Of a DNA stretch of 64,000 nucleotides, positions 35,367-63,755 are shown piece by piece. Within the stretch, counting starts at the first letter, position 1; each line of letters opens with the position of its first letter. The notes under the pieces were generated by a model. It saw nothing but the letters and a program-made list of their open reading frames with translations. It did not search any database and was not told the DNA's origin. This stretch comes from Candidatus Pacearchaeota archaeon (GTDB lineage: Archaea > Nanobdellota > Nanobdellia > Pacearchaeales > GW2011-AR1): the NCBI GenBank assembly GCA_016181895.1, contig JACOYL010000009.1, positions 3,346 to 67,345 on the forward strand. Reading direction: 5' to 3'. A program made the translations under genes and the position numbers.

Positions 35367-38054
35367 TTAAATTTTTCGTGGTTGAGTTGCATTTTGGTTC
35401 TTAATATTTGAATTGCCGAAAGAGGTCTTGGGATGCCTTGCAAACTTGAACAATTCCCCCATGGGAATTTCAAACATGCCTGTTCTTTTTCCGTAATATT
35501 TTTTCATTATGTAGGCAACCTGCTCTGAATTCCAGCCCGCTTTTTTTAATCCCAAGGAAACTTTCCTGTCCTCAACCCCCTGCTTCTTCATGTTGTGCAC
35601 ATACGAAACTATGTTGAACAAATCATTTCTGTTTTTGAAAAGATGGCTTTCGTATTTTCTCTTGTACCACTGCTGCATTGTTATATAGGAAATAAATCCA
35701 AGTAAACTAACGAGCAACACAACCAAAATGATTAAAGTTAAATCAGATATTTTTTCAGTGTTAAGTATCTTAAATTCCTTTTGAATAGAAATCTCGCTTA
35801 ATTTAGGGGAAATGAATGCCGGCAGTTCTGAAAATTCAATGTCTTCTATTGTTGAAAATCCTATGGTTTCTCCGCCTTCAAGCCGGATTGAAACATATCC
35901 TTCTTCTTTCTGTTCAGAATAATCGCCGTCAAATGTGAGATTTTCAAATTCAGGCATAATCAAATAAGCACCGTCAATTTCAGGATTGCTGCTTATTTGC
36001 AATTTAAACACATTTAATATTTCCACGGGATTGTCTTCGAAATTTGCCGTGAATTCCTTGGAACTGATTTTCGTCTGGCTGTTCGCGGCGTTCCATGCCA
36101 AAACAGCTTGCGTGTATTTTTCACTGTCGTTTCCATAATTCCCGCCGCCAATCTTTTTTAAAATTTGCAGATTCACGCTTTCCTCACTTGGAAAAAACGG
36201 AATTGATTCAACATTTTTTGTTATGTCAATGGAACTAGGTATGCTCAGAGTTACCAAATCGGCCATTATTGAAATGTAATCATTATCATCACTTCCTGCG
36301 GTTGCATTTCTCTGCTGTATGTCGCTTAATATTGATTCAACGTCATCAAGATTTAGAATCGCATCCAATGAATTTTGTTCAAATAAAGAAAGATTTTCAA
36401 TCTGTGCCTTTATGTTGTTTAAATTGTCCAAATTCCGTTTTAACAACTTATTTACGGCATTTCTTGGCGTTGCAATTTCAATGTTGAACGATTTTGAGGA
36501 ACTTTTTCTGTTGGAATCTGTTACCATTATTGTCACGACATACTCTCCAATTTCAGTGTAAGTGTATGTGGTTTTGTTTTCTGTGGTTTTCTGGCTTGGA
36601 GAATCGTCGCCAAAATCCCATTCATAATTAATTATTCTTGCTGAAGAATTAAAAGTGTTAACCCTAACCTTGAATTCCGTGGGGAGAGCGGCAATGGCAA
36701 TCATGGGACTTAAGGAAACTATCTGCGGCACTTTTTCAATTTCAATTGTTTCCGAGAAAATTGGTTCATCGTTTAAACTCAGAGAAAGATTGTGTCTTCC
36801 GAAATTTCCCGGAACTGAAAAATTTGCATAATCCAATAAAATTTTTAAAAATCCGGATGTAATTTTTGCGGGGGTTTCTGATATATTATGAATTGGAAAA
36901 TTTCCTCCTTCACATATACCGATTTCCTCATTATAACACCTAAACGTTCCATCCACCTCATAATTAATATGCACGTCTGAAATCGTAACGGCTTGCTGCT
37001 GATTTTTTCCGGATGTAATCCTTATTGGGACAATGCATTCATTAGCACACTTTCCATTATATTTGTCCAAAATATATCCTCCTATTTCCCCATCAAGTTC
37101 ATTTAAAGCAATTGTTCCCAATGCTGCAAATTTTCCAGGTTTTGCAAATATCTGGAAATCTTTCGGGAATTGCTTGCTTGTGGCATAACCGCATATTTCT
37201 CCTGCTTGTTCAAATTTTATTTTATAATTATAGTTCGCAGGGTCATCCTCATTGTTTTTGATGCACACATAATAATCCTCTTGCTTGTCTATTTTGAAAT
37301 CTTCCGGAACGCAGCCGATTCTTCCCCCTCTAAGCACGGAGACATCGCAGGATGCGCTGTTTCCATTTTCATTGTCTATTGTAAATCTAAAACTTGCGCT
37401 TGGGTTTGTTGGGTCTGTTATATAGGCGCCTATTTCAACTTCCGGCGCAATGGGAATGTTTATTTTTTCGCAAAAAGAATTTGTTATTATAAGTGTTTCT
37501 CCTAAAGTTTGAGTCAAAGGGTCAAAACACCCGAAATCCTCATTGTAGAAATTTCCGGATGCATCAGATGATTCCCAGTCATTTTCTCCGTCAGCCAAGA
37601 CATCGATAAATAATTGTTTGAAAGTGGATTCAGGGGCATTACTTTGTATGTTCATTGAAAAACCGTTAATTTCGTCAATTGTTTCTCCTAAAAATCTCAA
37701 TCCAAAAACTTTTGATTCCCTGCTTCCCAATGTAATTTCTTTTATACTTTCTCCGCTTTCATCCACGGAAGAATAATCAGAGGCGCAGTCAAGGGGCGAA
37801 CATGTGTAATTCACACCCGCTTCAAACTTGTTTAAGTCCATTAAATCAACCAGACTTATGCCGTCTCCAAAACCTGTTTCAAACAATGAATTTACAGATT
37901 CTTCGTTCAAGCTTATGTTTATCCAGCCTCTTAAAGAACTGCCCAAAGGATATTTTTTTTCAATTGAACGGCTTAGATTTCCATTTGTAAAATCCGCGGA
38001 AATAAAATTTGAAACCAGTATGACTAATAATAAAAATATCACCGCTTTTTTCAT
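35367..38054 (-). CDS. Large surface protein (895 aa): signal peptide, PKD domain, TM, cytoplasmic 'KG..AGW' tail
   Basis: 'MKKAVIFLLLVILVSNFISA'. PKD-like 'YEWDFGDDSPSQ...YTYTEIGEYVVTIMVTD' (~36430-36610). TM 'LTLIILVVLLVSLLGFISYI'. Tail 'MKKQGVEDRKVSLGLKKAGWNSEQVAYIMKK'. Confidence 0.75.
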   Translation of the reverse strand: MKKAVIFLLLVILVSNFISADFTNGNLSRSIEKKYPLGSSLRGWINISLNEESVNSLFETGFGDGISLVDLMDLNKFEAGVNYTCSPLDCASDYSSVDESGESIKEITLGSRESKVFGLRFLGETIDEINGFSMNIQSNAPESTFKQLFIDVLADGENDWESSDASGNFYNEDFGCFDPLTQTLGETLIITNSFCEKINIPIAPEVEIGAYITDPTNPSASFRFTIDNENGNSASCDVSVLRGGRIGCVPEDFKIDKQEDYYVCIKNNEDDPANYNYKIKFEQAGEICGYATSKQFPKDFQIFAKPGKFAALGTIALNELDGEIGGYILDKYNGKCANECIVPIRITSGKNQQQAVTISDVHINYEVDGTFRCYNEEIGICEGGNFPIHNISETPAKITSGFLKILLDYANFSVPGNFGRHNLSLSLNDEPIFSETIEIEKVPQIVSLSPMIAIAALPTEFKVRVNTFNSSARIINYEWDFGDDSPSQKTTENKTTYTYTEIGEYVVTIMVTDSNRKSSSKSFNIEIATPRNAVNKLLKRNLDNLNNIKAQIENLSLFEQNSLDAILNLDDVESILSDIQQRNATAGSDDNDYISIMADLVTLSIPSSIDITKNVESIPFFPSEESVNLQILKKIGGGNYGNDSEKYTQAVLAWNAANSQTKISSKEFTANFEDNPVEILNVFKLQISSNPEIDGAYLIMPEFENLTFDGDYSEQKEEGYVSIRLEGGETIGFSTIEDIEFSELPAFISPKLSEISIQKEFKILNTEKISDLTLIILVVLLVSLLGFISYITMQQWYKRKYESHLFKNRNDLFNIVSYVHNMKKQGVEDRKVSLGLKKAGWNSEQVAYIMKKYYGKRTGMFEIPMGELFKFARHPKTSFGNSNIKNQNATQPRKI

Positions 38055-38220
38055 AATAAATTATGGTGAATTTGTTTTATAAATATTTGGAGAAAATCAC
38101 TATGAAGTTAATTCGCCAACCTAATAAGCATTATTTAAGATAAATCTTAATGCTGTGAATTTAAATTATCCGACACTGCCCGATTAAGTTATTATAGATT
38201 ATTGATATAAAATTATTCAA

Positions 38221-39579
38221 TTATTTTTTCTTATGCTTATGTTTCCTTTTTTGTTTTTCGATTATGTTGAATATTGCGTAAATCAATGCAATCAAAATTC
38301 CAGAGATTATCAAATTGTAGAAATTGAAAAACGGAAGCTGCACCAATGCAGGACATGCAAGTTTCTTTGAGTCAACTTCACAGGAAGCAGGCTTGTCTAA
38401 AAGTTCTCCACTCCATGTTGCCGTCCAACTGTATGAAATAAATCCGTCGCCGCATCCATCAGGGTCGCTGCTTGATGCCTTGATTGTGCATTTTCCTAAA
38501 ATGCTTTCCTGCCCTGTTGTAGGATCGTAATTAACAGTCTGAAATGCCGAATCGCATGTTGATGAAGATGTATCCCACTCGCAGAAACAAAATGACGGAG
38601 GCGAACATTCGCTGCTTTCAGGAACACTGTCCTCTGCAACATCGCACACATCATTATCAGTGCAATATGCTTGCCCATAATCAGAACACACAAACTTGTC
38701 ATCGCAGAATCCCGCGGTTAAAACAGTTCCTATCTTCAAATCCCCGCTTGTGGCTAATGAATTTCCCGCATTTGAAGCTTCGAAATAAAATTCCATTTCA
38801 TCATAATCTTCAACAAGAGCTTCAAGAAGAGGGTGTCCTTTATCCAAATCTATTTGAGTAATAAGCCATTCATAGTTTGCTCTTTCATCAGCACCTGTTT
38901 GGACTGTCACGGTTTTTATTAAGTCGTCTGCAGTAAGAGTATCATCCCTTTCTTTAATCTCAAATGTTATTTGCGTTCCTTGGGGAAGATTTGAATTCTT
39001 TAATATCATCCATATTTTTGTTGTGTCTGGAACAACATCTATCGTGCTTACAGACGTTACACCATTTTTAGACCATATGGCAGATGTTATTAGTGAAGAA
39101 GATGTACAATAAATTTTAACCCCGTAATCATTAATCGCTCCAATATGGGCATTTGTTTCTGCCGATAATGATAATACAGGGATGGGATATTTATCCGGAG
39201 CATATTCAGGGTCATTTGAATCTACACACTCCAAATCCCCGTAACAAACAAAATTTGCAAGAATTGTATAAGCAGTTCCCGATGGGATTTCAGCGTGTGC
39301 GTTTGTTGCAGATGAGAGTCCGATAACTTTGTTGGTTCCGGAACATGCTGCGTTGCCGCCGGCAAAATTACAGCAAACATATTTGTATCCGGAAGGACTC
39401 GCTTCTGTTGTTGCGCCGTGCGCATTCGTTAGGTCTGAAACTCTCATCAATTCATAATCAGAACCGGTATCGGTACAGGCTGTACTTTGAATCGAACAAC
39501 TTTCTCCGGTCGCAAAAACTCCGATTGAAAGAAACATTGTAAAAATCAACGTCAGTAATAAAACCACACCGCTTTTCAT
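38221..39579 (-). CDS. Cys-rich surface protein with three 'S..TNAH' repeats and a C-terminal TM/basic anchor
   Basis: Signal-like 'MKSGVVLLLTLIFTMFLSIGVFA'. 'SDLTNAHG', 'SSATNAHA', 'SAETNAHI'. Very Cys-rich throughout. C-terminus '...ILIALIYAIFNIIEKQKRKHKHKKK'. Start set at Met8 from TATA spacing. Confidence 0.6.
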   Translation of the reverse strand: MKSGVVLLLTLIFTMFLSIGVFATGESCSIQSTACTDTGSDYELMRVSDLTNAHGATTEASPSGYKYVCCNFAGGNAACSGTNKVIGLSSATNAHAEIPSGTAYTILANFVCYGDLECVDSNDPEYAPDKYPIPVLSLSAETNAHIGAINDYGVKIYCTSSSLITSAIWSKNGVTSVSTIDVVPDTTKIWMILKNSNLPQGTQITFEIKERDDTLTADDLIKTVTVQTGADERANYEWLITQIDLDKGHPLLEALVEDYDEMEFYFEASNAGNSLATSGDLKIGTVLTAGFCDDKFVCSDYGQAYCTDNDVCDVAEDSVPESSECSPPSFCFCEWDTSSSTCDSAFQTVNYDPTTGQESILGKCTIKASSSDPDGCGDGFISYSWTATWSGELLDKPASCEVDSKKLACPALVQLPFFNFYNLIISGILIALIYAIFNIIEKQKRKHKHKKK

Positions 39580-39623
39580 CTCCCCTATAACAAACCGCAT
39601 TTTATAAACTTTAATATTCTATT

Positions 39624-52110: not shown

Positions 52111-53511
52111 TTAATACTTTACTCCACTAATATTAATTCCATCAATGTAAAATTTATCACCATCAGAATTCATCCCACCGACAAAACTAAATTGTGTAGA
52201 ACTGGTAAAAGAAGATGTGTCAGTTAAAATGACATTTTGAGGAATCCAGCCATCTTGAGTTGTTGAACTACACCAAGAATTTATTACAGATGTTCCTACT
52301 TTAAATTGAAGACAATCTGAACCCTCAAAACTATTATAATATCCGCTCCAGTTTACTGTTACGGTTGTATACCCTACTAAATTGAAATTTTGTGATATTG
52401 AGGCTGTACCCCCTCTTATTCTAATATTTGCAATACCCCCTTTTTGTCCGGCGTCTGTAACATTGATTGTAGGACTTTCCACAGTATTCCTATTAACATT
52501 TCCACTAATTGTCCATCCTTGATTTACAATTGTATTATCTTCAAATCCAAAAACTTTCAAAGAGGGGTATTTAAGAGCCACGATATTTAATGTTTCTACC
52601 TGACAACTACTTGAGCAACCATCTCCGCTAAGAGGCGGACTTCCTACATCATTATCACATTGCTCACTTTCCTGATTAACTGTTCCATCTCCACAAACAG
52701 CTGCCGGTGGAGGAGCAGTGCATCCGGTAAACGTGCAACTTGATGTACAACTCAAAGTTCCAGTCCACCCACTTTCAAAAGCAGTTTCACAGTTTTTCCC
52801 ATCCAAATCAGTTCCATCACACTGCTCTGTTCCTTCTATATTATTATTAAGATTACAGCTTATTCCAAATGTTCCGCAAATTAAATTTTCTTTTATCCTC
52901 GCATCTGTGCAACTAACAGGTCTTATTCTGTTTTTTATCGTCTCATATCTTAAAGGAACTATTTCAATTGAATAAATGCATTGGCCAGAACTAGAGGAAC
53001 ACGTGCCACCATTGACACTTAAAGGACCAATTGCAAAAGAATCGCTTAATGTATCTCCAGCACTTTTCGGATTTATGTCATTTCCTCCTGTCCAATATTT
53101 TACAAAACCCCCGACTTTTCTTTTGGGATTGGTGTTATAAGAAGACAAATCATTCACGGCAAGTTCCTGATCTGAAGATGTTGTTGCATGAATAAAATAT
53201 CCCGCGATGTCAAATCTTCCGTTATTTTTAAGAGTTAAATCAAATCTGTCGTCACTGCAATCATTGTTGTAACTTTGTATGAAAAGCGAAACGCCTTCAT
53301 CGCATTTTATTGATTCCTGGGGAACGTATGTTTTTACCCACTGATAGACAATTATGCTCATCAGGATTGCCATTGATATGAGCAATATGTACCCAATCAT
53401 CACGCTGATTCCTCTGCGATTTTTCAGTAAACCCTTTCTTTTTCGAGCCAGAGACGAACGCCAAGATGTTGTTCGTGAGGAAGATGGGTGAACTTGTGAA
53501 CCTCTTTTCAT
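52111..53511 (-). CDS. Pilin-N-terminus fused to a Cys-rich repeat adhesin module (466 aa) with a 34-aa leader
   Basis: '...LLKNRRG/ISVMIGYILLISMAILMSIIVY'. 'CGDGTVNQESEQCDNDVGSPPLSGDGCSSSCQVE' is a Myxococcus-type Cys-rich repeat (~52590-52830). C-terminal beta-sandwich-like region ending 'GDKFYIDGINISGVKY'. Confidence 0.7.
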   Translation of the reverse strand: MKRGSQVHPSSSRTTSWRSSLARKRKGLLKNRRGISVMIGYILLISMAILMSIIVYQWVKTYVPQESIKCDEGVSLFIQSYNNDCSDDRFDLTLKNNGRFDIAGYFIHATTSSDQELAVNDLSSYNTNPKRKVGGFVKYWTGGNDINPKSAGDTLSDSFAIGPLSVNGGTCSSSSGQCIYSIEIVPLRYETIKNRIRPVSCTDARIKENLICGTFGISCNLNNNIEGTEQCDGTDLDGKNCETAFESGWTGTLSCTSSCTFTGCTAPPPAAVCGDGTVNQESEQCDNDVGSPPLSGDGCSSSCQVETLNIVALKYPSLKVFGFEDNTIVNQGWTISGNVNRNTVESPTINVTDAGQKGGIANIRIRGGTASISQNFNLVGYTTVTVNWSGYYNSFEGSDCLQFKVGTSVINSWCSSTTQDGWIPQNVILTDTSSFTSSTQFSFVGGMNSDGDKFYIDGINISGVKY

Positions 53512-56218: not shown

Positions 56219-56478
56219 CGCAGACTAGGTTGGCGGGTTAGCCCTCCGCTATTTGCAAACGGGCTTCATGGCAAACTGCGAGGAAGACGTGACAGACGCG
56301 TTGAAAAGTCTTTATTTGGACGTTGACGTTTTGTCCGCTTTGATCTTGCAGGTGCGAAACGGGTCAGGCCTTGATCGGAGCAGCCCTAAACATTTGTTAA
56401 GGTGCTTGGCGGGTTACAGGACCGAGAAAGAATGAAGGAAACTATTCAGTGTGTTTGAAGCAACCTTCCGAGTCTGCG
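56219..56478 (+). ncRNA. Signal recognition particle RNA (7S/SRP RNA), ~260 nt
   Basis: Local GC-rich island. Helix-8 motif 'GGGUCAGGCC..UCGGAGCAGCCC' (56361-56386) matches the universal GGUCAGGUCC...GGAAGCAGCC. 5' 'CGCAGACUAGG' pairs with 3' 'CCGAGUCUGCG' at 10 of 11 positions. Alu-like 5' 'GGCGGGUUAGCCCUCCGC'. TATA-like 'cttaaaaa' ~24 nt upstream. Ends approximate. Confidence 0.75.
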
Positions 56479-56484
56479 TATAAT

Positions 56485-56850
56485 ATGTTCAATCCGCTAA
56501 AACCATTTCAGAGACATGATGACAAATTTTTTGCCTTCCTTTTAGAAAACGATTTCTCGAAAGATTTGGAATTTATTACCCATTTAATTTTGATATCTGA
56601 AAGAGATACCGAGAAAATTCCTATGATAGAACCTTTATTGGATTCTCTAAGAGAAAAGTACTCAAAAGAAAACCCCTCCTATAAATATGCCTCAAAAAAT
56701 TTGAGGGATGAATATGATGAAATTAGCGGCAAAATAAACCGGATTTTGCGGTTGGACTCTTTGAGAATGAGCCACAATCCAAGAAGCAAAGTATATCAGC
56801 ATGCTTACAGGCTTTTAAGAAAAGAATTGAGTCAAATAAATTATAATTGA
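56485..56850 (+). CDS. Hypothetical protein
   Basis: ORF 56449-56850 trimmed to Met13 to clear the SRP RNA 3' end. Confidence 0.45.
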   Translation: MFNPLKPFQRHDDKFFAFLLENDFSKDLEFITHLILISERDTEKIPMIEPLLDSLREKYSKENPSYKYASKNLRDEYDEISGKINRILRLDSLRMSHNPRSKVYQHAYRLLRKELSQINYN

Positions 56851-56851
56851 T

Positions 56852-59731
56852 TTATCTCCTCCTGAAAACAGCAATAAGCAAGATTAAAACTCCGACAACC
56901 AAATTCATCCAAACCAGATATTTGTTTGCAGTGTCAAACTGTTTGTAAAATTCGCCGTTTATGTTATTCCCTTGGATTTCATTGTTCGTTGTTTCGCCAT
57001 TTTCATGATTCAAGTCGCTTGAAGATAAAAGAATTTTCTTGAATGCTGAAAATTCTGTTTTAACTTCATCAAAGCCGTCGTCAAAAACAACCTTTGCATT
57101 TAAACTATATTTTCCCTGCTCAAAATTTTCGGGAATTTTTATAGTGACGTTCCAAAATGCTTTGTCATCTTCGTCAAATTCCTCCAATTCAAAAACCTCG
57201 CTGACTATATTTATTTCCATTTCGGGAATGCTGACAACGACATAAACCTCTTCATCTCTTGTTCCGATGTTTTCAATTGAAACCCCGACATTCAAATAAT
57301 CTCCGAGATAAGCATAAGGGCTTGTCGTCAATTCTTTTATTATGACGTTGTGCTTTTCCCTTTCAGCATCAATTAAAATCGCTTCCTCATTGCATTGCGA
57401 TTCCTGATTGTTTTTTTCGTATGCTTTCATGTATAATATGTAATTGTCATTTTCATCCAAATCTCTTGGAATTTCAAGCTCGAATTCAAATTCCTCGCCT
57501 TCATTTCCTTTTATTCTCTCGTCATGGCTTTCTTTTTCTTCCTCTTTATTTTTATCAACATTGTATAAAACCGCTTTGAGAACTAGATCCTTGCTTTGCT
57601 CGTTGTTGTTTCTTACATCTGCTTCAATGTCAACAAAATCTCCAACTTCAACCTCGTCATTTTCCTCGGGGTCGTTTAAATCAATCTCCAAATTTCCCCG
57701 AACCCCTGAAATGCATTTTGCCAATCCTGTTAAGAGGCTTAAGTCAATTATCTCTCCGCTTCCGGTTACAAAGAAAGAAGAAAAATGCTCGACTTCAAAT
57801 TCGACAATTCCGTTTGCCGTCGGAAAATTTGTGTAATTAATGATTTCACAAAAATCACAATTCTGATTTATCTGGCTTGAAATACTTGTGAAACCGCTTG
57901 TAAAAAGGATTTTCGGAACGGAATTGTAACTTGCTTTAAGGGTTATTGTCGCGTTTTTGTTCAATTCAGGATATTTCGTGGTGTTTACGGCTATAATTCC
58001 ATTTTGAATTATCACGTTTCCGTCAATGTCCAAAACGTTTGTCAAATCCACGACATCGTTGAATGTGATTTTTCCGGCAGAATTCTCAAGCGTGAAATCC
58101 GATACGTTGCTCAAATCGGCAACAGCCGAAAGATTTGTCGTCGCGTTTCCCGTGAAGGAATTCATTATTGGAATTATCGTGGAAATTAAATTCCATTCTT
58201 TTGCAACTTCATTGTTTCCCAAATCGAAAACAATTACTGTTATGTTAAATTGCCCAAGATTTTGAGATTGATATAAAAAACTGCTTGTGTTTGTTTCATT
58301 CTGGATTCCGTTGACAAACCATCTATAAATTAAGGTATCTCCGCCGAAATCAACGGCAGTTACATTGAACATCTGGCTTTGATTTTGTTTTATAATAATT
58401 TGCGATTCCAAAGGACTGAAATTTGTTATCTGCGGCAATCCGTTGTTAATCAAAATTTGTGCAATCGTGCTTACATTTGCATTATTCACATTATCTATAG
58501 AACTTATATTAATAAAATAAAATCCATCCAAAAATGAAGATGTATTGAAAGAATTGTTAATCCAGTTTCCTCCGATAAATTTTGCCGGATAAGTCATGTT
58601 TCCCACGCTGAAAACAAGCGATTGAACCCCGCTTAAATCAGAAACGCTTGCATTTAAGAGAGTCATTCCGAAAATCGTTGAATTGTTTGCAGGAGAATTC
58701 AAAGTTGCTATCGGGGCGGTATTGTCGACGAAAATTGTCCCGACAAAAATTTCAACAGTATTATTTCCTGTGTCTGTTAAAGTTGTATTGATTGTATAAA
58801 TTCCGTCTGGAACAAATGGGGGAATTGTTTCTGTAAATCCTCCTTTCCAAACTTCAACATTTGAATAAACATTATTTGGACCCACAAAAAATTTAACTTG
58901 ATCAGCGCTTGAATTATGAATCTCTGTTCTTCCCCAGTCCTCAATTAATTCCGAGGCGTTCATTGTTATGTTTGCAAAGTCATAAAATCCGTCCTGGTTT
59001 GCCGGCGAGAAAATGTAATCGCTGCCGTTGAAATAAGCTCCGGAGATTGTGGTTGAGTTTAGTGTTGGAAAAACTTCGTCAAAGAATTCAACAATCTGTC
59101 CGTTAATTACTACATCATCAACATAAGACTCATGTTCCAAATATTGTGGAATCCAACCATCAATTTCTATTTGGATTTTTAATATGTTCGCGCCGGAATA
59201 ATTTATTTTCCAGTCTGCAAGTGATTTATGATTGTTATCAAATGTTGAGTCTCCGCAAGGTCCCGGAGGTCCGGAATTCAACCAGGCATAACTTAAATTT
59301 GTTAAAATTCCCTTATCATCAAAAGTGCTTAGGTTTCCTGTGGGATATGGTGCATTATCACAATTTGATTGATCAACTTTTGCATATTCAAAGACAAGAA
59401 CTTCTCCATTATCGAGAAAAATATCCGCATGTGGCAAATAACCTTGAACAACATTTGCCTGCCAAGAGATATTTTCCAAATCGATTAATGGTACTGGAAC
59501 ATCAAATGTTATGTTTATTCTTGCTTCATTTGAAGGAGGGTAACTTGTTATATTATCCGCCTGCAAATAAACAGATTCTGAACCGCTAAAATTCCAGTTT
59601 GTTGAAATTTGGGAGATTGCAGAACCTGTAACCGACAAATCCGAGGTCGTGGAAAAAGCAGAAGTAAAAATAGCAACAAGAACAAGAATCAACAATAACA
59701 CAAATACACTCTCAATCCCTCTTCCCCCCAT
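56852..59731 (-). CDS. Giant surface adhesin-like protein (959 aa), sequon-rich, with C-terminal TM anchor
   Basis: N-terminus 'MGGRGIESVFVLLLILVLVAIF'. Dozens of N-x-S/T sequons. CARDB-like segments ('GDFVDIEADVRNN', 'GDYLNVGVSIENIGTRDEEVYVVV'). C-terminus 'LVVGVLILLIAVFRRR'. Confidence 0.7.
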   Translation of the reverse strand: MGGRGIESVFVLLLILVLVAIFTSAFSTTSDLSVTGSAISQISTNWNFSGSESVYLQADNITSYPPSNEARINITFDVPVPLIDLENISWQANVVQGYLPHADIFLDNGEVLVFEYAKVDQSNCDNAPYPTGNLSTFDDKGILTNLSYAWLNSGPPGPCGDSTFDNNHKSLADWKINYSGANILKIQIEIDGWIPQYLEHESYVDDVVINGQIVEFFDEVFPTLNSTTISGAYFNGSDYIFSPANQDGFYDFANITMNASELIEDWGRTEIHNSSADQVKFFVGPNNVYSNVEVWKGGFTETIPPFVPDGIYTINTTLTDTGNNTVEIFVGTIFVDNTAPIATLNSPANNSTIFGMTLLNASVSDLSGVQSLVFSVGNMTYPAKFIGGNWINNSFNTSSFLDGFYFINISSIDNVNNANVSTIAQILINNGLPQITNFSPLESQIIIKQNQSQMFNVTAVDFGGDTLIYRWFVNGIQNETNTSSFLYQSQNLGQFNITVIVFDLGNNEVAKEWNLISTIIPIMNSFTGNATTNLSAVADLSNVSDFTLENSAGKITFNDVVDLTNVLDIDGNVIIQNGIIAVNTTKYPELNKNATITLKASYNSVPKILFTSGFTSISSQINQNCDFCEIINYTNFPTANGIVEFEVEHFSSFFVTGSGEIIDLSLLTGLAKCISGVRGNLEIDLNDPEENDEVEVGDFVDIEADVRNNNEQSKDLVLKAVLYNVDKNKEEEKESHDERIKGNEGEEFEFELEIPRDLDENDNYILYMKAYEKNNQESQCNEEAILIDAEREKHNVIIKELTTSPYAYLGDYLNVGVSIENIGTRDEEVYVVVSIPEMEINIVSEVFELEEFDEDDKAFWNVTIKIPENFEQGKYSLNAKVVFDDGFDEVKTEFSAFKKILLSSSDLNHENGETTNNEIQGNNINGEFYKQFDTANKYLVWMNLVVGVLILLIAVFRRR

Positions 59732-59796
59732 ATTTCCTCAATTCAGTTTTCATATTTAAGCATTATTGTCCTCTAAAAATATTGTTTGAAATAATG

Positions 59797-60582
59797 CTAA
59801 TAACTCTTCCACAAAACCAATTTTCCTTCCTCATCTCTGAGGAACAGAGTATCTCCTGTTCTTGTCCAGACATAATTCTCATTTTTCCAGAATAAAACAT
59901 TTTCCTTGCCAGTTTCATTGCCGACTTTTATTGTAATTTCTTTATTTCCATTTAATACAAATTTTAGAAAAATGAATTTCTTTCTTCCCTCGTCCTTTAT
60001 TTCCCAATTTGTTAAATCGCAGGAAAAATCGCATTTGTTTCCAAAAACAACAATTTCATTTTTGTAGTCAAAATTTTTCAATTCCACGCAGCTTGAACAA
60101 ATATCTTTTGATTTCTCGCACAAATTTATATTTTTCTTCAAACATTCGTTCCACGCTTCTTGGAAATTATCATAATAAACATCTTTTCCTGCGGGAAAAT
60201 AATAATTCCCGAATCCATTTTCTACAACTCCCAGATTTACATTTTCTCCATTGAGAAAAATATATGCCAGGGTTCTGTTGTACAAGTCCTTTCTTTCCTT
60301 TCCGAATTTTAATTGAACTGTTTTATTAAGAATTTCCTTTTCCAAAAATTCCTTCGCTTCACTATAATATTTCTCTTTTCTTTCCGGCGTGTTAATTCCG
60401 AGAAGCCTTATGCTTTCATTGTTCCCGATTATTGTGTCTCCGTCGACGATTCTTGAAACAAAAGCTTCTTCGTCGCTTTCCAGAAATTTTACAACAAGAC
60501 TGTCAAGGAAAGAATAATCAACTGTGAACAAAAACAGGAAAAGAAAAATCAGGAGATAAATGTCTATTCTCTTTTTGCTCAT
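59797..60582 (-). CDS. Secreted/membrane-anchored staphylococcal-type nuclease (SNase) fused to a lamin-tail-like domain
   Basis: 'VSRIVDGDTII...IRLLGINTPE...YYSEAKEFLEKEILNKTVQL...DLYNRTLAYIF' (SNase). C-terminal 'CVELKNF...CDLTNWEIKDEGRKKFIF' is LTD-like. Confidence 0.75.
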   Translation of the reverse strand: MSKKRIDIYLLIFLFLFLFTVDYSFLDSLVVKFLESDEEAFVSRIVDGDTIIGNNESIRLLGINTPERKEKYYSEAKEFLEKEILNKTVQLKFGKERKDLYNRTLAYIFLNGENVNLGVVENGFGNYYFPAGKDVYYDNFQEAWNECLKKNINLCEKSKDICSSCVELKNFDYKNEIVVFGNKCDFSCDLTNWEIKDEGRKKFIFLKFVLNGNKEITIKVGNETGKENVLFWKNENYVWTRTGDTLFLRDEEGKLVLWKSY

Positions 60583-60824
60583 AAAACAATAAAAAAATTT
60601 ATCTTAATAATCGAATAGCGGTCGGCTTTTCCTGTTTCTGAAAGAATTTTTGTTCCATCTTTTTCCCTATGCTCTCTCCAAAGTCTTTCCTCATAAGTTT
60701 CATTTCTTCTAAATGTTTGTTGTTGATTTTCAGTTCTGTTTGAATATTGTCTATTTAGTGTACAACCTCCAATTGCAACAATTCCCACAATTAATGGCGT
60801 AATTACATATTTTCTTAAATTCAT
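60579..60824 (-). CDS. Small putative lipoprotein
   Basis: 'LIVGIVAIGGC' lipobox-like signal. Overlaps the nuclease start. Confidence 0.4.
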   Translation of the reverse strand: MNLRKYVITPLIVGIVAIGGCTLNRQYSNRTENQQQTFRRNETYEERLWREHREKDGTKILSETGKADRYSIIKINFFIVL

Positions 60825-60877
60825 TATTAGTCTTGGGAAAAAGAATACTTAAACATTATTATAAAAAAGGATATATA

Positions 60878-62251
60878 TTATTCCAGGCTTCCCCTTTGCT
60901 CCGAGACAAAGAACGCCTTGTTCGACGATGTTTCATGTATCTCTCCTTCTTTTTCATAAATCGCGGTTGCTTCCGGCAATGCAAATTTTCCCATCACTCC
61001 GACTTTTGAATAAATCACGTATGAAAGCACCCTCTTTTCGCCGGGCATGAGATTGCTTATGTCCCACTCGATTCTTCTCAGTTTGTCGTTGATTCTGCTT
61101 GGTTTTTCACCGCCGAATCTCTCGTAAAGTTTTACAAGCGGCGGGATTCTATCAACGACGCTTATTCTCTCAACATGCCTTCTTGCTCCGACGACAATGG
61201 AAATCTTCAATGCAAATTCCCCGCCTTTGGCATGGACAAAAGAAACCTTTTTTCTCAAAACAAGATTTGTCATCGCATATTGCTTTACTATCACGACTAT
61301 CGCAACAATAAAGAAAATCACAAGCAGCGGGAAAAGCCAGTTTGTCCTTACCGTGATTTTCAAACTCTCTCCTGGATTTATTTCCTTTGCCCAGGTGTAA
61401 TAAACATTGAATCCCTGCCTTCTCACGGAATCCGGCTCAGGATTCAAAGTCGTGAACAATCTGGAAATAATGTTCTTTTTTATTGTTGTTTGCGATTCAG
61501 CGACGACATTTCCCTGATTTTTCTTTTCTATGACATGCGTGCCGATTAAAAATCCGTAGTCGTTCTCTGTTGTTTTCAGCAAATCCTGTTCGACAAATTT
61601 CACAACACCCTCGACCTTTGCGTCTTCATTTTTGTACGTGACATCCGCCTTCAAAGTGTAAAAACCTGCTGTTAATTTTTCAAAATCCTCCCTGTTCAAT
61701 TGAACCAAAAACTCCTTTCTCTCAAAAGCCTTCAATGGAATGTCCTGCTCCAATTCAAAAAACGGAGAATCAAAACTGACGCGAATGATGTCAAAATTAA
61801 AATTTACCTTGTTGCTTATGTACACGTTTATCGAGCTTGTTTCCGGAAATATTTCCCACGAGCCTATTTCAAAAGCGTCTTTCAAATCAATCATGTTTAT
61901 TGTGACTTTTTCGGAAACTTTTTCCTTGTTGGTTCCCTGTATGAAATATTCGAAAGTGTAAAATCCGTTGAAATTCAAATCCTCTCTTGGATAAATCATC
62001 AATTGAACGTCTTTTGTTTCGCCGCCCGCTATCAAAACAGTTCCTTTCGGCGCCATGGAAAACCCGAGAAGATTGTAAAATTCAAAGTTGTCGCTGCTTC
62101 CGAGATTTTTTACCTTCAAGTCAAAAGTTGCCGGTTCGTTCACGTTGTTTATTATCACTTCCCTTGAACCGACTTTTTGAACCTCAAGATTTATTGCCGA
62201 GAGATACGGGAGAGCCAATAACAGAATTATCAAAAAAATCAATTTTTTCAT
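60878..62251 (-). CDS. Surface/membrane protein with signal peptide and central TM
   Basis: 'MKKLIFLIILLLALPYLSA'. Ig-like beta-rich N-half. TM 'LFPLLVIFFIVAIVVIV'. The C-half resembles DUF58/DUF11-like repeats (weak). Confidence 0.5.
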   Translation of the reverse strand: MKKLIFLIILLLALPYLSAINLEVQKVGSREVIINNVNEPATFDLKVKNLGSSDNFEFYNLLGFSMAPKGTVLIAGGETKDVQLMIYPREDLNFNGFYTFEYFIQGTNKEKVSEKVTINMIDLKDAFEIGSWEIFPETSSINVYISNKVNFNFDIIRVSFDSPFFELEQDIPLKAFERKEFLVQLNREDFEKLTAGFYTLKADVTYKNEDAKVEGVVKFVEQDLLKTTENDYGFLIGTHVIEKKNQGNVVAESQTTIKKNIISRLFTTLNPEPDSVRRQGFNVYYTWAKEINPGESLKITVRTNWLFPLLVIFFIVAIVVIVKQYAMTNLVLRKKVSFVHAKGGEFALKISIVVGARRHVERISVVDRIPPLVKLYERFGGEKPSRINDKLRRIEWDISNLMPGEKRVLSYVIYSKVGVMGKFALPEATAIYEKEGEIHETSSNKAFFVSEQRGSLE

Positions 62252-62310
62252 GAAAAATCATGGAATAACTTTATTTTAAGGATTTCGGTTGTGGAAATAT
62301 TGTTTTTGAT

Positions 62311-62814
62311 TTATTTCCTTCCTTCCAAATCCAGATACGCCTTTGCCTGGTTTAGAAATTCGTCGCATTCCTCCGCAATTTTTCCCTGATACTCTTCGAC
62401 TCTGGATGGTATGACCCATTTTTCATAAACGCTTCTCAGGAATTTTCTGAAAGCGGACATTTCAAATTTTCCCTGATAATCCCTTGCAAGCACGCCTTTC
62501 ATTTTTATTTCCACCGCGCCGCGGTTTGTCTGTATTTTCACGCCGCCCTGATTTATTTCGGCTTTTGTCAAATTTGAAATCCTGAAATCAACCCTTGTTT
62601 CAAACTGGAAATAATCAGTCATTCTTTTGAAGCAAACCCACGTTATCTCGATTCCTTTCGCGTCTCCCGTCAGTTTTTCCGAATATTTTGTTTCCGAAAG
62701 TATAAGCCCTGTTTCTTCCGTGAGCCACGCATGGCAGAAATTGTAAAAATCCGTGAATGAAAAAATCCCGTTGTATCTTATCTTGCTTGAAAACACAGTG
62801 TCTTTTTCCACCAT
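62311..62814 (-). CDS. Hypothetical protein
   Basis: 167-aa ORF. No motif recognised. Confidence 0.45.
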   Translation of the reverse strand: MVEKDTVFSSKIRYNGIFSFTDFYNFCHAWLTEETGLILSETKYSEKLTGDAKGIEITWVCFKRMTDYFQFETRVDFRISNLTKAEINQGGVKIQTNRGAVEIKMKGVLARDYQGKFEMSAFRKFLRSVYEKWVIPSRVEEYQGKIAEECDEFLNQAKAYLDLEGRK

Positions 62815-63101: not shown

Positions 63102-63674
63102 TTACAATATATTCATGCAGCCTTCACAGAGAAGCATCCCGTTGAATTTCTGCAAAACGCTTTGCCTTCCGCAGCGTTCGCACGAGCCTTCTTCCCTTGA
63201 CATTTCCGACTCTTTTTTTTCCCTGATTCTTTTCAGTTTTTCAGATTCTTCCTTGATTTTTGCGAACTCTTCAAGCTCCGTGTAAATCTCCGGATGGAAA
63301 CTCAAAATATCCCTTACAGTTATGATTCCGACAAGCTCTTTTTTCTTCACGACGGGAAGCCTCTCGAATTTCAATTCCTTTATTTTTTTTATCGCCTCCC
63401 TTATCGTGGCTTCCGGCTTTACCGTCGCGATTTTTTTCGGGGAAATGTCAATGGCTTTTATTTTTCCCAAGTCCTCTTTCGGTTTTTTAACCAAAGCCCA
63501 TAGAATGTCCTTGTTTGTTATTATTCCGAGAAGCCTTTTTTTGTCGTCGGTTATGACGAGGCTCCCCATGTTTTTTCTTACCATGATTTTCGCGCATTCA
63601 AGCAAATTTGTATCGGGTTTGATTTTTGTGGGATTGTGGGTCATTATGTCCGAAACAAGCACTTCCTTTAACAT
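63102..63674 (-). CDS. CBS-domain pair protein with C-terminal Zn ribbon
   Basis: 'VSDIMTHNPTKIKPDTNLLECAKIMVRKNMGSLVI' and a second CBS unit. C-terminal 'CERCGRQ...CEGC'. Start set at Met17 from the TATA at ~63700-63711. Confidence 0.75.
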   Translation of the reverse strand: MLKEVLVSDIMTHNPTKIKPDTNLLECAKIMVRKNMGSLVITDDKKRLLGIITNKDILWALVKKPKEDLGKIKAIDISPKKIATVKPEATIREAIKKIKELKFERLPVVKKKELVGIITVRDILSFHPEIYTELEEFAKIKEESEKLKRIREKKESEMSREEGSCERCGRQSVLQKFNGMLLCEGCMNIL

Positions 63675-63755
63675 AAGACTCTTAAGAAAAAGGCGGTTAT
63701 ATAATTTTCTTCTGTAGAACAATAATGCTTAAAAGCCCGGTGGAAATCCCTTTTT

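What the first reader, a model, noticed from the sequence alone, without database searches (positions are those of the whole stretch)
56852..62251. Adhesin-nuclease cluster adjoining the pilus locus
- **Seen:** This is a co-oriented run of four genes: a 959-aa sequon-rich adhesin with CARDB-like domains and a C-terminal anchor, the SNase-LTD nuclease, a small lipoprotein and a 457-aa signal-peptide membrane protein.
- **Seen:** The adhesin N-terminus ('MGGRG/IESVFVLLLILVLV') also resembles a class III signal.
- **Inference:** Together with 35367-39600 and the pilus genes this forms a ~27-kb surface island. That is what one would expect of an episymbiont's host-contact and nutrient-scavenging toolkit.
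Basis: partly seen in the sequence, partly recalled or inferred. Interest (0 to 1): 0.6.

Follow-up and report, generated by a model that had tools for sequence, protein, structure and literature searches.

The report
Self-cleaving archaeal adhesin beside nuclease
Next to its pilus genes, a tiny DPANN archaeon encodes a membrane-bound DNA-cutting enzyme and a sugar-coated surface protein with the same self-cutting joint as the nuclear-pore protein Nup98, so its outer part can probably be snapped off; the other two genes of the supposed cluster do not belong to this unit.

Summary
All four minus-strand ORFs exist as described, but they are not one functional unit and not a variable island.

- **Protein A (959 aa):** It has a Sec signal, a sequon-rich ectodomain (35 sequons against 15 expected, 34 of them before residue 650) and a Nup98-type S59 autoproteolytic domain with an intact His-Phe|Ser motif. 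An acidic, sequon-poor two-β-sandwich stalk and a C-terminal TM anchor follow. I predict self-cleavage at F650|S651, leaving a non-covalently held, releasable ectodomain, as in bacterial MAIN/GAIN-type surface proteins.
- **Distribution:** The domain occurs in 111 of 201 sampled genomes of the class.
- **Protein B:** An N-terminally anchored SNase-LTD ecto-nuclease.
- **Synteny:** The order B, A, five pilins, pilus ATPase, platform genes, RtcB recurs in three other genomes or contigs.
- **Protein D (457 aa):** An order-wide, single-copy core envelope protein (57/61 relatives). Its constant partner is the upstream 167-aa gene, not the nuclease or adhesin.
- **ORF C:** A sporadic small lipobox ORF.
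- **Rejected:** The class III signal reading and the link to 35367-39600.

Cleavage, nuclease activity and any pilus link remain untested predictions.

The parts
56852..59731 (-). Gene A, 959 aa: Sec-exported, sequon-rich, C-terminally anchored surface protein with an internal Nup98-type autoproteolytic (HFS) domain
   Evidence: ORF; Pfam PF04096 36.9 bits (cut-off 28.4); homologs; sequon statistics; model
59657..59731 (-). A signal peptide (aa 1-25, predicted cut TSA|FS), class I rather than class III
   Evidence: Ortholog N-termini keep small-x-small sites (VSA|A, SVSA|FS, ASA|FF) and lack a conserved RG motif; genuine window pilins read N[KR][RS]G|hydrophobic
58172..59656 (-). A variable ectodomain (aa 26-520): an N-terminal domain with no detectable relatives, then Ig-like modules (Big_13, Big_7 and PKD-like). 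It carries 28 of the 35 sequons.
   Evidence: mosaic and length-variable between orthologs (858-1941 aa)
57767..58147 (-). A autoproteolytic HFS domain (aa 529-655), Nup98/S59-type member of the ZU5/Nup98-C/GAIN-B superfamily
   Evidence: PF04096 above the gathering score. The domain profile hits only Nup98, Nup116 and Nup145 in the PDB, to 5e-6. It is the best-conserved region of A (55-77% identity). pLDDT is above 90.
57779..57787 (-). His649-Phe650-Ser651 codons; predicted scissile bond F650|S651
   Evidence: Translation checked. Aligned in register with the Nup98 HFS. Lies in the turn between the last two strands of the model. Ser/Thr in 148/148 and Phe in 143/148 representatives.
57017..57766 (-). 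A stalk (aa 656-905): two acidic beta-sandwich domains with 1 sequon
   Evidence: AF2 model; Foldseek hits to tandem beta-barrels of transglutaminases and RbmA; composition
56858..56929 (-). A C-terminal transmembrane anchor (aa 935-958), followed by Arg959
   Evidence: Hydropathy; helix in the model; TM plus basic tail at the C-terminus of 20 of the 22 homologs tabulated
59797..60582 (-). Gene B, 261 aa: N-terminally anchored staphylococcal-type nuclease (aa 58-154) fused to a lamin-tail domain (aa 168-258)
   Evidence: Pfam; PDB thermonuclease 4e-13 with DGDT, Arg, Glu and Arg aligned and Asp40 replaced by Asn; 'LGINTPE' and 'NYxFLD' conserved in orthologs; present in 46/61 relatives
60579..60824 (-). 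ORF C, 81 aa: small lipobox-like protein (IGG|C), sporadic
   Evidence: Its only counterpart is the 106-aa ORF of L001 (IFAG|C, shared ETxxADxYS). It is absent from L003 and from same-genus G001.
60878..62251 (-). Gene D, 457 aa: order-wide core single-pass envelope protein (signal peptide, three external beta-sandwiches, TM 306-326, cytoplasmic beta-sandwich). Not part of the nuclease-adhesin unit.
   Evidence: More than 1300 homologs at 56-90% identity; 57/61 relatives, single copy; AF2 pLDDT 81; only generic Ig-array fold hits
62311..62814 (-). 167-aa cytoplasmic protein, the conserved upstream partner of D (outside the finding's coordinates)
   Evidence: Directly upstream of D in L005, L006, L007, L008 and L010 at 55-68% identity
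41467..54908 (-). Type IV pilus locus that follows B and A in conserved order (context)
   Evidence: T2SSE and T2SSF Pfam hits; same gene order after B-A in L002, G030 (L009 + L013) and partly L001

Best explanation
The region holds two separate things.

**1. A conserved nuclease + adhesin pair (B, A) that leads into the type IV pilus locus.**
- A is exported by the Sec route and heavily N-glycosylated on its variable outer 650 residues. It is held in the membrane by a C-terminal helix on top of an acidic two-domain stalk.
- Between ectodomain and stalk sits a Nup98-type (S59; ZU5/Nup98-C/GAIN-B superfamily) autoproteolytic domain with an intact His-Phe-Ser motif.
- I infer that Ser651 attacks the Phe650 carbonyl (N-to-O acyl shift) and cuts the chain in the turn between the last two beta-strands.
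- The glycosylated ectodomain then stays attached only by beta-sheet hydrogen bonds. Force could pull it off, for example when it is bound to another cell.
- B is an N-terminally membrane-anchored, calcium-type staphylococcal nuclease with a lamin-tail domain. It probably degrades extracellular or host nucleic acid at the cell surface.

**2. Gene D, with the 167-aa gene upstream of it, is an order-wide core envelope gene pair of unknown function.** It merely abuts the B-A pair in this genus. ORF C is a sporadic small lipobox protein.

**Shown:** domain homology, motif register and conservation, architecture, sequon partition, synteny, and core versus variable status.
**Inferred:** cleavage itself, release by force, glycosylation, nuclease activity, and any functional tie to the pilus.
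For: **Domain homology**
- PF04096 scores above its gathering cut-off in A (36.9 against 28.4 bits) and in 26/32 family members.
- A domain-only profile finds only Nup98, Nup116 and Nup145 autoproteolytic domains among 177,635 PDB sequences (best 5.3e-6). 'FevehFssf' aligns on Nup98 'FKVNHFSKY'.

**Motif and geometry**
- The nucleophile is Ser/Thr in 148/148 representatives, P1 is Phe in 143/148, and +2 is aromatic in 148/148.
- HFS sits in the turn between the last two strands of a confident model (pLDDT above 90 there).
- The HFS domain is the best-conserved part of A.

**Partition at the cut**
- 34/35 sequons lie N-terminal to the cut.
- In 22 homologs the C-fragment is 296-387 aa with 0-4 sequons and is acidic in nearly all. 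20 of the 22 end in a TM helix plus a basic tail. N-fragments range from 265 to 2034 aa.

**Precedent**
- The same architecture (signal peptide, adhesion or enzyme domains, HFS domain, anchor) was shown experimentally to self-cleave at HF|S in bacterial MAIN proteins (10.64898/2026.05.12.724683).
- ZU5, GPS and Nup98 were united earlier in one superfamily (PMC3482391; ECOD group).

**B and synteny**
- B matches SNase and LTD in Pfam, with catalytic residues aligned.
- The order B-A-pilins-ATPase-platform-RtcB recurs in L002, G030 and partly L001.

**D**
- D is core and travels with the 167-aa gene.
Against: - No experiment or proteomic data shows cleavage.
- The catalytic His is present in A but in only 83/148 family representatives (Gly in 37, Ser in 14). 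Part of the family may therefore not cleave, and the conserved F-S/T-x-F/Y could be partly structural.
- Foldseek could not classify the HFS domain, because the two stalk domains dominated the hits.
- No GAIN or ZU5 relationship was demonstrated directly.
- B carries Asn at the SNase Asp40 calcium ligand.
- The B-A pairing holds only in a sub-clade. G012 has B followed by a different, non-HFS surface protein and no pilus genes.
- Several other relatives have B and HFS proteins far apart or on different contigs.
- Each gene has its own AT-rich TATA-like upstream stretch, so co-transcription is not shown.
Confidence: 0.65

Rival explanations
1. The HFS domain of A is a non-cleaving structural or binding module, like ZU5 domains that do not process. 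A would then be a single-chain anchored surface protein.
For: The His is replaced by Gly or Ser in about a third of family representatives. The own-genome paralog reads SFS. Position +1 is also mostly Ser/Thr, so F-S/T-S/T-F/Y could be a conserved beta-turn signature. No cleavage data exist.
Against: A itself has the full H-F-S triad, aligned in register with the proven Nup98 site and identical to the proven MAIN site. The nucleophile is invariant as Ser/Thr in 148/148, and these two residues were shown to be interchangeable for catalysis. The sharp sequon and charge boundary falls at this bond.
Confidence: 0.2
2. One reading: the four genes, 35367-39600 and the pilus genes form one ~27-kb accessory surface island acting as a host-contact and scavenging toolkit.
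For: All these products are predicted to be exported or membrane-bound. B-A-pilus order is conserved. A's ectodomain is highly variable between relatives.
Against: D is a single-copy core gene with a different conserved partner. GC content is uniform. RtcB and a MazF gene lie inside the stretch. There is no homology between the two large proteins or between the two ~458-aa proteins. The 35367-39600 genes are absent from the conserved block of G030. An earlier follow-up describes the pilus operon as a fixed lineage-wide parts list.
Confidence: 0.1
3. A is primarily an S-layer or envelope lattice subunit rather than an adhesin. Its conserved HFS + stalk + TM module would form the lattice base, and the cleavage (if any) would be a maturation step.
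For: Partial match to NCBIfam NF033506 'putative S-layer protein' over aa 509-889 (70.7 bits, below the 110 cut-off). The sequon-free acidic stalk could be buried in protein contacts. A ~560-615-aa HFS ORF recurs in many relatives.
Against: A-type orthologs are confined to a few genera and vary from 858 to 1941 aa, which is unlike a main lattice protein. Family ectodomains are adhesion or enzyme modules such as cadherin-like, PKD, cohesin and S8 peptidase. The NF033506 score is below its cut-off.
Confidence: 0.15

Closest known systems
MAIN (microbial GAIN-like) autoproteolytic surface proteins, e.g. B. subtilis YfkN (Brogan & Rudner, bioRxiv 2026, 10.64898/2026.05.12.724683)
   Same: Same order of parts: signal peptide, adhesion or enzymatic ectodomain, autoproteolytic beta-sandwich with an HFS motif, then a surface anchor. 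Cleavage between F and S with fragments staying associated was shown for MAIN. Family ectodomains here are likewise adhesion and enzyme modules.
   Different: The anchor here is a TM helix on a conserved two-domain acidic stalk, not sortase or SLH. The domain scores as Pfam Nup98 S59 (PF04096), whereas the preprint's proteins score as ZU5 or GPS. No ZU5 hit was found in this genome. The host lineage is DPANN archaea, which are absent from the RefSeq Select set the preprint surveyed. Direct homology to YfkN was not tested.
Nup98-Nup96 / Nup145 / Nup116 autoproteolytic domain (MEROPS S59, Pfam PF04096)
   Same: Sequence homology is above Pfam's curated threshold over 128 of 148 model positions. 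The family profile retrieves only these domains from the PDB, and HFS aligns on HFS. The motif lies between the last two beta-strands.
   Different: A is a secreted, glycosylated, membrane-anchored surface protein, not a nucleoporin. It has no FG repeats and no Nup96-like partner. Cleavage here would free an ectodomain rather than separate two pore subunits.
ZU5-superfamily autopeptidases in bacterial surface proteins and polymorphic toxins (Zhang et al. 2012, PMC3482391)
   Same: That paper united ZU5, GPS and Nup96/98 and noted such domains in large bacterial surface proteins with adhesion and hydrolase modules. This is the same general logic.
   Different: Those were bacterial and often sat N-terminal in RHS toxins. 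Here the domain is C-proximal, archaeal and of the Nup98-like branch.
GAIN/GPS domain of adhesion GPCRs and polycystin-1
   Same: H-x-S/T cleavage in a beta-turn, a non-covalently attached ectodomain, adhesion modules outside and a membrane anchor inside.
   Different: There is no 7TM signalling module and no GAIN-A helical subdomain, and no PDB GAIN sequence was hit. The C-fragment is a stalk plus a single TM.
Extracellular or membrane nucleases of DNA-scavenging and competence systems: LTD-bearing Xds and ExeM, and EndA/NucA working with competence pili (own knowledge; EndA in PMC3764208)
   Same: B is a surface-anchored nuclease with an LTD, encoded next to a type IV pilus locus in conserved order.
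   Different: The catalytic fold differs (SNase, not beta-beta-alpha-Me or EEP). No ComEC-like channel was looked for, and no evidence links B to the pilus beyond synteny. Asp40 is replaced by Asn.

Membership tests
Nup98/Nup145 S59 autopeptidase domain (PF04096) | Sequence match to the curated family model above its gathering score | tested here: met
   36.9 bits against 28.4 over model positions 19-146/148; 42.1 bits in the six-frame genome search; 26/32 family members match
Nup98/Nup145 S59 autopeptidase domain (PF04096) | His-Phe-Ser catalytic motif at the C-terminal end of the domain, in register with the nucleoporin site | tested here: met
   A has H649-F650-S651. The profile alignment puts 'vehFss' on Nup98 'VNHFSK' in 7fik_G.
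Nup98/Nup145 S59 autopeptidase domain (PF04096) | Beta-sandwich fold with the scissile bond in the turn between the last two strands | tested here: inconclusive
   DSSP of the AF2 model places HFS (model residues 145-147) between strands 134-143 and 148-153. Foldseek could not rank the domain, because the stalk domains dominated.
Nup98/Nup145 S59 autopeptidase domain (PF04096) | Actual self-cleavage | not testable with these tools
   Needs protein expression or proteomics
Nucleoporin (whole-protein membership) | FG-repeat or nuclear-pore context | tested here: not met
   A has a signal peptide, sequons, Ig-like modules and a TM anchor. Membership holds at domain level only.
MAIN-domain surface proteins | Architecture: signal peptide, adhesion or enzyme domains, autoproteolytic domain, surface anchor | tested here: met
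MAIN-domain surface proteins | Conserved H-x-S/T (HFS) site | tested here: met
   His is conserved in only 56% of the family but is present in A.
MAIN-domain surface proteins | Homology to YfkN MAIN, GAIN-B or Pfam ZU5 | tested here: inconclusive
   No GAIN or ZU5 chain among PDB hits at E up to 10. PF00791 was silent in this genome, but the controls were silent too. The link rests on the ECOD and Zhang 2012 superfamily.
MAIN-domain surface proteins | Cell-wall anchoring by sortase signal, SLH or wall-binding domains | tested here: not met
   A ends in a TM helix plus a basic tail
Staphylococcal nuclease (PF00565) + lamin-tail domain (PF00932), gene B | Both domain models above their cut-offs | tested here: met
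   SNase 58.7 bits (cut-off 21); LTD 35.5 bits (cut-off 34.3)
Staphylococcal nuclease (PF00565) + lamin-tail domain (PF00932), gene B | Catalytic and calcium residues (Asp21, Arg35, Asp40, Thr41, Glu43, Arg87 of S. aureus nuclease) | tested here: inconclusive
   DGDT, Arg, Thr, Glu and Arg align. Asp40 is Asn ('LGINTPE') in B and in all four orthologs read.
Archaeal class III (prepilin-type) signal, for A | [KR]-G | hydrophobic cleavage motif conserved among orthologs | tested here: not met
   RG is absent in the G001 ortholog, P0003 and P0004. A conserved small-x-small site follows the h-region. The window's pilins differ.
Lipoprotein (lipobox), for ORF C | [LVI][ASTVIG][GAS]-Cys after an N-terminal hydrophobic stretch | tested here: met
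   IGG|C in C and FAG|C in the L001 counterpart. Whether this archaeon lipidates such sites was not tested.
CARDB (PF07705), for A's C-terminal domains | Match to the family model | tested here: not met
   No CARDB hit in A at E up to 0.1, only weak DUF4625 and DUF7490. 3/32 homologs hit CARDB. The fold is a beta-sandwich.
Genomic island | Deviant composition and variable presence among relatives | tested here: not met
   GC is 0.35-0.38 throughout 54-64 kb. D is present in 57/61 and B in 46/61 relatives. Only A's ectodomain and ORF C are variable.

The most novel reading that the evidence does not exclude
The membrane nuclease (B), the self-cleaving glyco-adhesin (A) and the type IV pilus, encoded in a conserved order, work as one apparatus. 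The adhesin latches onto a host or prey cell and its ectodomain is released under load at the Nup98-type joint. The pilus draws in nucleic acid that the anchored SNase-LTD enzyme cuts at the surface. This would be an archaeal, competence-like nucleic-acid harvesting machine for a nucleotide-auxotrophic symbiont.
Probability: 0.2. Interest if true: 0.75.

Novelty: new member of a known kind. Interest (0 to 1): 0.6.

Why it matters
**Surface biology of DPANN archaea**
- The domain gives large DPANN surface proteins a concrete, testable mechanism: a built-in breakable joint.
- It is common, occurring in 111 of 201 sampled genomes of the class, with up to 11 matches in one genome.
- These genomes fall outside the RefSeq-based survey that defined bacterial MAIN domains.

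**Origin of the nucleoporin autopeptidase**
- Among solved structures, this archaeal branch is closest in sequence to the Nup98 autopeptidase, not to ZU5 or GAIN.
- That bears on where the nuclear-pore domain came from.

**A candidate functional module**
- The conserved order nuclease, adhesin, pilus points to a possible module for attachment and nucleic-acid scavenging.
- It could be tested with recombinant proteins and with metaproteomes, in organisms that cannot yet be grown alone.

**Annotation**
- The analysis separates a genuinely conserved unknown (D and its 167-aa partner, core to the order) from the variable surface genes.

Tried and rejected
- **Paralogy between the two 'surface' regions:** BLASTP of A against 35367-38054 and of D against 38221-39600 found nothing significant. 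Rejected.
- **Single-sequence PDB search with full-length A:** Nothing useful. The domain-only profile was needed.
- **N-terminal domain of A (aa 30-225):** No PDB relative and no Pfam hit.
- **D:** No Pfam or NCBIfam family, only generic Ig-array fold hits. Its function is left open.
- **The search for related loci with the domain alignment:** Failed because the alignment had no stretch conserved enough.
- **Pfam ZU5 search of the genome:** Silent, but so were the controls, so this is uninformative.
- **Class III signal for A:** Rejected on ortholog comparison.
- **ORF C as spurious:** First suspected because tblastn found nothing. Revised after reading the L001 ORF in the same slot.
- **Bacterial promoter and terminator scan:** Not used, because it does not cover archaeal promoters.

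Full report
**1. Observation**

The four co-oriented minus-strand ORFs exist exactly as listed: A 56852-59731 (959 aa), B 59797-60582 (261 aa), C 60579-60824 (81 aa, overlapping B by 4 nt) and D 60878-62251 (457 aa). GC content is flat across the region (0.35-0.38).

- A carries 35 N-X-S/T sequons against 15.1 +/- 3.3 in shuffles. It has an N-terminal hydrophobic signal and a C-terminal TM with a basic tail.
- B is SNase (9.4e-16) plus LTD (35.5 bits against a cut-off of 34.3).
- D has a signal peptide and one internal TM.

So the description is correct.

**2. The key feature of A**

Pfam places a Nup98-Nup96 autopeptidase S59 domain (PF04096) at aa 538-653. It scores 36.9 bits against a gathering score of 28.4 and covers model positions 19-146 of 148. 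The domain ends in '...VEFEVEHFSSFFV', and His-Phe|Ser is the self-cleavage site of Nup98.

- **Homologs.** Full-length homologs are few: four close ones and 13 in all. The motif region is nevertheless their best-conserved part (55-77% identity against 20-70% elsewhere).
- **Wider family.** A search with the domain alone (aa 505-700) against 1.84 billion representatives found 423 clusters at E <= 1e-3 and 124 at E <= 1e-10. They are mostly proteins of 600-2700 aa.
- **Motif conservation.** In the best 150, the nucleophile position is Ser or Thr in 148/148. The preceding residue is Phe in 143/148 and the +2 residue is Phe/Tyr in 148/148. The His is kept in only 83/148, with Gly in 37 and Ser in 14.
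- **PDB comparison.** A 38-sequence domain-only profile searched against all PDB sequences returned only nucleoporin autoproteolytic domains for its first 22 hits (Nup98, Nup116, Nup145; best 5.3e-6). 'ngtvvFevehFssfkv' aligned on Xenopus Nup98 'GSWVFKVNHFSKYGL'. No GAIN or ZU5 chain appeared even at E <= 10.
- **Model.** AlphaFold2 on aa 505-959 with 32 sequences gave mean pLDDT 84, and above 90 across the domain. H649-F650-S651 lie in the tight turn between the last two strands.

Foldseek could not classify the domain, because the two following beta-sandwiches captured all top hits (transglutaminase C-terminal barrels and RbmA). Fold membership therefore rests on sequence homology and secondary structure.

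**3. Architecture and the boundary at the predicted cut**

Downstream of S651 come two beta-sandwich domains (about aa 680-900), a disordered linker and a TM helix. 34 of 35 sequons lie before residue 650. The C-part is acidic, with 69 Asp+Glu against 29 Lys+Arg.

The same partition holds in all 22 homologs examined:
- The C-fragment is 296-387 aa with 0-4 sequons, and is acidic in nearly all.
- 20 of the 22 end in a TM helix plus a basic tail.
- The N-fragment ranges from 265 to 2034 aa with up to 109 sequons.

Ectodomains in the family are adhesion or enzyme modules: Big_9, PKD, cadherin-like, He_PIG, LTD, cohesin and beta-helix, and S8 peptidase by source names. The same-genus ortholog in G001 is 1941 aa. 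Its first ~200 residues and its C-terminal module are conserved, and its middle is mosaic.

The window's genome holds a second, shorter HFS protein of 561 aa. It has the motif VTSFSTY, a Gly7 linker, a predicted C-terminal TM helix and a basic tail.

**4. Signal type**

A reads 'GGRG|IESVF' and the pilin at 52111-53511 reads 'NRRG|ISVM'. However, orthologs lack the RG motif (G001: 'MEIMGLKKRREIILW...'). Nearly all homologs show an n-region, an h-region and a small-x-small site (VSA|A, VSG|A, ASA|F, and SVSA|FS in the G001 ortholog, aligned with TSA|FS in A). I read it as a Sec/signal-peptidase-I signal, at about 80% confidence.

**5. How A most likely works**

The layout of signal peptide, adhesion or enzyme domains, HFS domain and anchor is the one Brogan & Rudner (bioRxiv 2026) describe for bacterial 'MAIN' domains. 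They showed:
- cleavage between Phe and Ser of HFS, by Edman sequencing;
- loss of cleavage in Ser-to-Ala and retention in Ser-to-Thr;
- co-purification of the two fragments;
- release of the ectodomain by denaturing treatments.

ECOD groups ZU5, Nup98-C and GAIN-B in one homology group. Zhang et al. 2012 had united them and noted such domains in large bacterial surface proteins.

By homology and architecture I infer the following for A. Ser651 performs an N-to-O acyl shift on the Phe650 carbonyl. The chain breaks. The glycosylated 625-residue ectodomain stays bound only through the beta-sheet, to which the C-fragment contributes the last strand. Mechanical load can then release it. These steps are inferred, not shown.

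The incomplete conservation of His in the family means some members may not cleave. A itself has the full triad.

**6. Is it a member of the known families?**

- **Domain level:** yes for S59/PF04096. The model threshold and the motif register were both tested and met.
- **Nucleoporin:** no. A is a secreted, anchored glycoprotein.
- **MAIN:** it works like one and shares the superfamily. Direct homology to YfkN, ZU5 or GAIN was not demonstrated, and the anchoring differs (TM and stalk rather than sortase or SLH).
- **Lineage spread:** the preprint surveyed RefSeq Select, where DPANN metagenome-assembled genomes are absent. Named distant hits here are all Woesearchaeota or Nanoarchaeota. With my profile the domain occurs in 35/61 close relatives and in 111/201 genomes of the phylum-level sample, or 93/158 genera. 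One genome has up to 11 matches, and the ORFs reach about 7,500 aa. The eukaryote-trained Pfam model alone sees it in only 11/61.

**7. Gene B**

B aligns to S. aureus thermonuclease structures at 4e-13. DGDT, Arg35, Thr41, Glu43 and Arg87 equivalents are in place, and Asn replaces the Asp40 calcium ligand. All four orthologs read carry the same 'LGINTPE', so this is a lineage trait and not decay. All have an N-terminal hydrophobic stretch followed by 'NYxFLD' with no obvious peptidase site. B is therefore probably a type II membrane-anchored ecto-nuclease. It is present in 46/61 relatives.

**8. What belongs together**

- **D is core.** D has more than 1300 homologs at 56-90% identity and is single-copy in 57/61 relatives, including 11/11 high-quality genomes.
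- **D's partner.** In distant relatives D is always preceded by the homolog of the 167-aa gene (window 62311-62814). The CBS gene and a thermosome gene are usually nearby, and the downstream neighbour varies.
- **D's structure.** The model (pLDDT 81) shows a signal peptide, three external beta-sandwiches, a TM at 306-326 and a cytoplasmic beta-sandwich. Fold hits are generic Ig arrays.
- **B-A pair.** D is next to B only within the genus (G001-G004, L003). By contrast, B is followed by an A-type HFS protein in L001, L002, L003, G001, G002 and G030.
- **Pilus.** In L002, G030 and partly L001 the pair is followed, in the same order as in the window, by homologs of the five pilin-like genes, the T2SSE ATPase, two T2SSF genes, two small ORFs and RtcB. 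The nuclease-adhesin pair is thus a conserved leader of the pilus locus in a sub-clade spanning at least two GTDB genera plus the more distant source genome of L002.
- **Limits.** The arrangement is not universal. G012 has B followed by a lipobox protein, a non-HFS anchored surface protein and a methylase. In several genomes B and the HFS proteins are far apart or on different contigs.
- **ORF C.** It has a counterpart only in L001 (106 aa, IFAG|C, shared ETxxADxYS). It is absent from L003 and G001.
- **35367-39600.** These proteins share no homology with A or D and are not in the conserved block.

**9. Verdict on the interpretation**

'One four-gene cluster' and a '27-kb island' do not hold. 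D is a core gene with another partner. Housekeeping genes lie inside the stretch (RtcB at 2e-85, and a MazF module). Composition is uniform. A role in host contact and scavenging remains a reasonable but untested inference. The literature I could search links DPANN pili to host interaction (PMC11291902), but not to nucleases or autoproteolysis.

**10. Novelty**

Autoproteolytic ZU5/Nup98/GAIN-type joints in prokaryotic surface proteins are known. An earlier follow-up in this scan reached the same domain-level reading for another DPANN genome (e1-1523842). That is agreement between AI notes, not independent evidence.

The new points for this locus are:
- the exact partition of sequons and charge at the predicted cut, across the family;
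- the conserved ~300-residue stalk + TM module;
- the class-wide frequency of the domain;
- the conserved order nuclease, adhesin, pilus;
- the separation of D and its 167-aa partner as an order-wide core pair of unknown function.

I rate it a new member of a known kind, with moderate-to-good interest. It gives a directly testable mechanism and touches the origin of the nucleoporin autopeptidase.

**11. Limits**

The HFS fold was not confirmed by structure comparison. Co-transcription is unknown. The glycosylation machinery was not examined. Relatives are fragmented metagenome-assembled genomes, so absences are soft.

Noticed in passing
G000 contig C23, locus L011:5187-6872 (minus strand); neighbour at L011:6923-7495: Second HFS-domain protein of the same genome. 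It is 561 aa with a variant motif VTSFSTY (His replaced by Ser), a Gly7 linker, a predicted C-terminal TM helix and a basic tail. It sits next to a 190-aa protein with N- and C-terminal hydrophobic segments. ORFs of 560-615 aa with the domain recur in many relatives.
   Followed up: partly
G050:C3:103984-111402 (relative's genome): A single 3745-aa ORF gives at least five separate HFS-domain matches in tandem, which would mean several potential 'joints' in one surface protein.
   Followed up: no
window 62311-62814 with 60878-62251 (and CBS gene 63102-63722): The 167-aa cytoplasmic protein and D form an order-wide conserved gene pair, usually near the CBS and thermosome genes. Neither has a Pfam or NCBIfam family. 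D's C-terminal beta-sandwich is predicted to be cytoplasmic and could contact the 167-aa protein.
   Followed up: partly
window 56449-56850 (+) and L008:7575-7966: The 133-aa ORF that converges on A's stop has a homolog in same-genus G001. There it lies between the nuclease and adhesin genes, beside a duplicated lamin-tail-domain fragment containing a stop codon. This points to a local rearrangement or a small mobile gene.
   Followed up: no
window 56219-56478: The Rfam gathering-threshold scan of the whole window reported only tRNA-Tyr (1902-1972). No SRP RNA was called where another first-stage note proposes a compact one.
   Followed up: no
proteins P0147, P0154; 4 of 32 family members: Lamin-tail domains also occur in some HFS-family surface proteins, at the N-terminus in P0147 and P0154. 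The LTD is therefore shared between the nuclease and adhesin families of these archaea.
   Followed up: no
L010:2048-4445 (G012): In a relative without any HFS domain, the slot after the nuclease gene holds a lipobox protein and a different C-terminally anchored beta-sandwich surface protein, followed by an HsdM-like methylase. The position downstream of the nuclease behaves as a variable surface-protein slot.
   Followed up: partly
window 59732-59796, 60825-60877, 62252-62310: Each of A, C and D has a TATA-like AT-rich box about 25-30 nt upstream of its start codon (for example 'CTTAAATA' before A). The genes may therefore be transcribed individually, but in a 36% GC genome this is weak evidence.
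   Followed up: no
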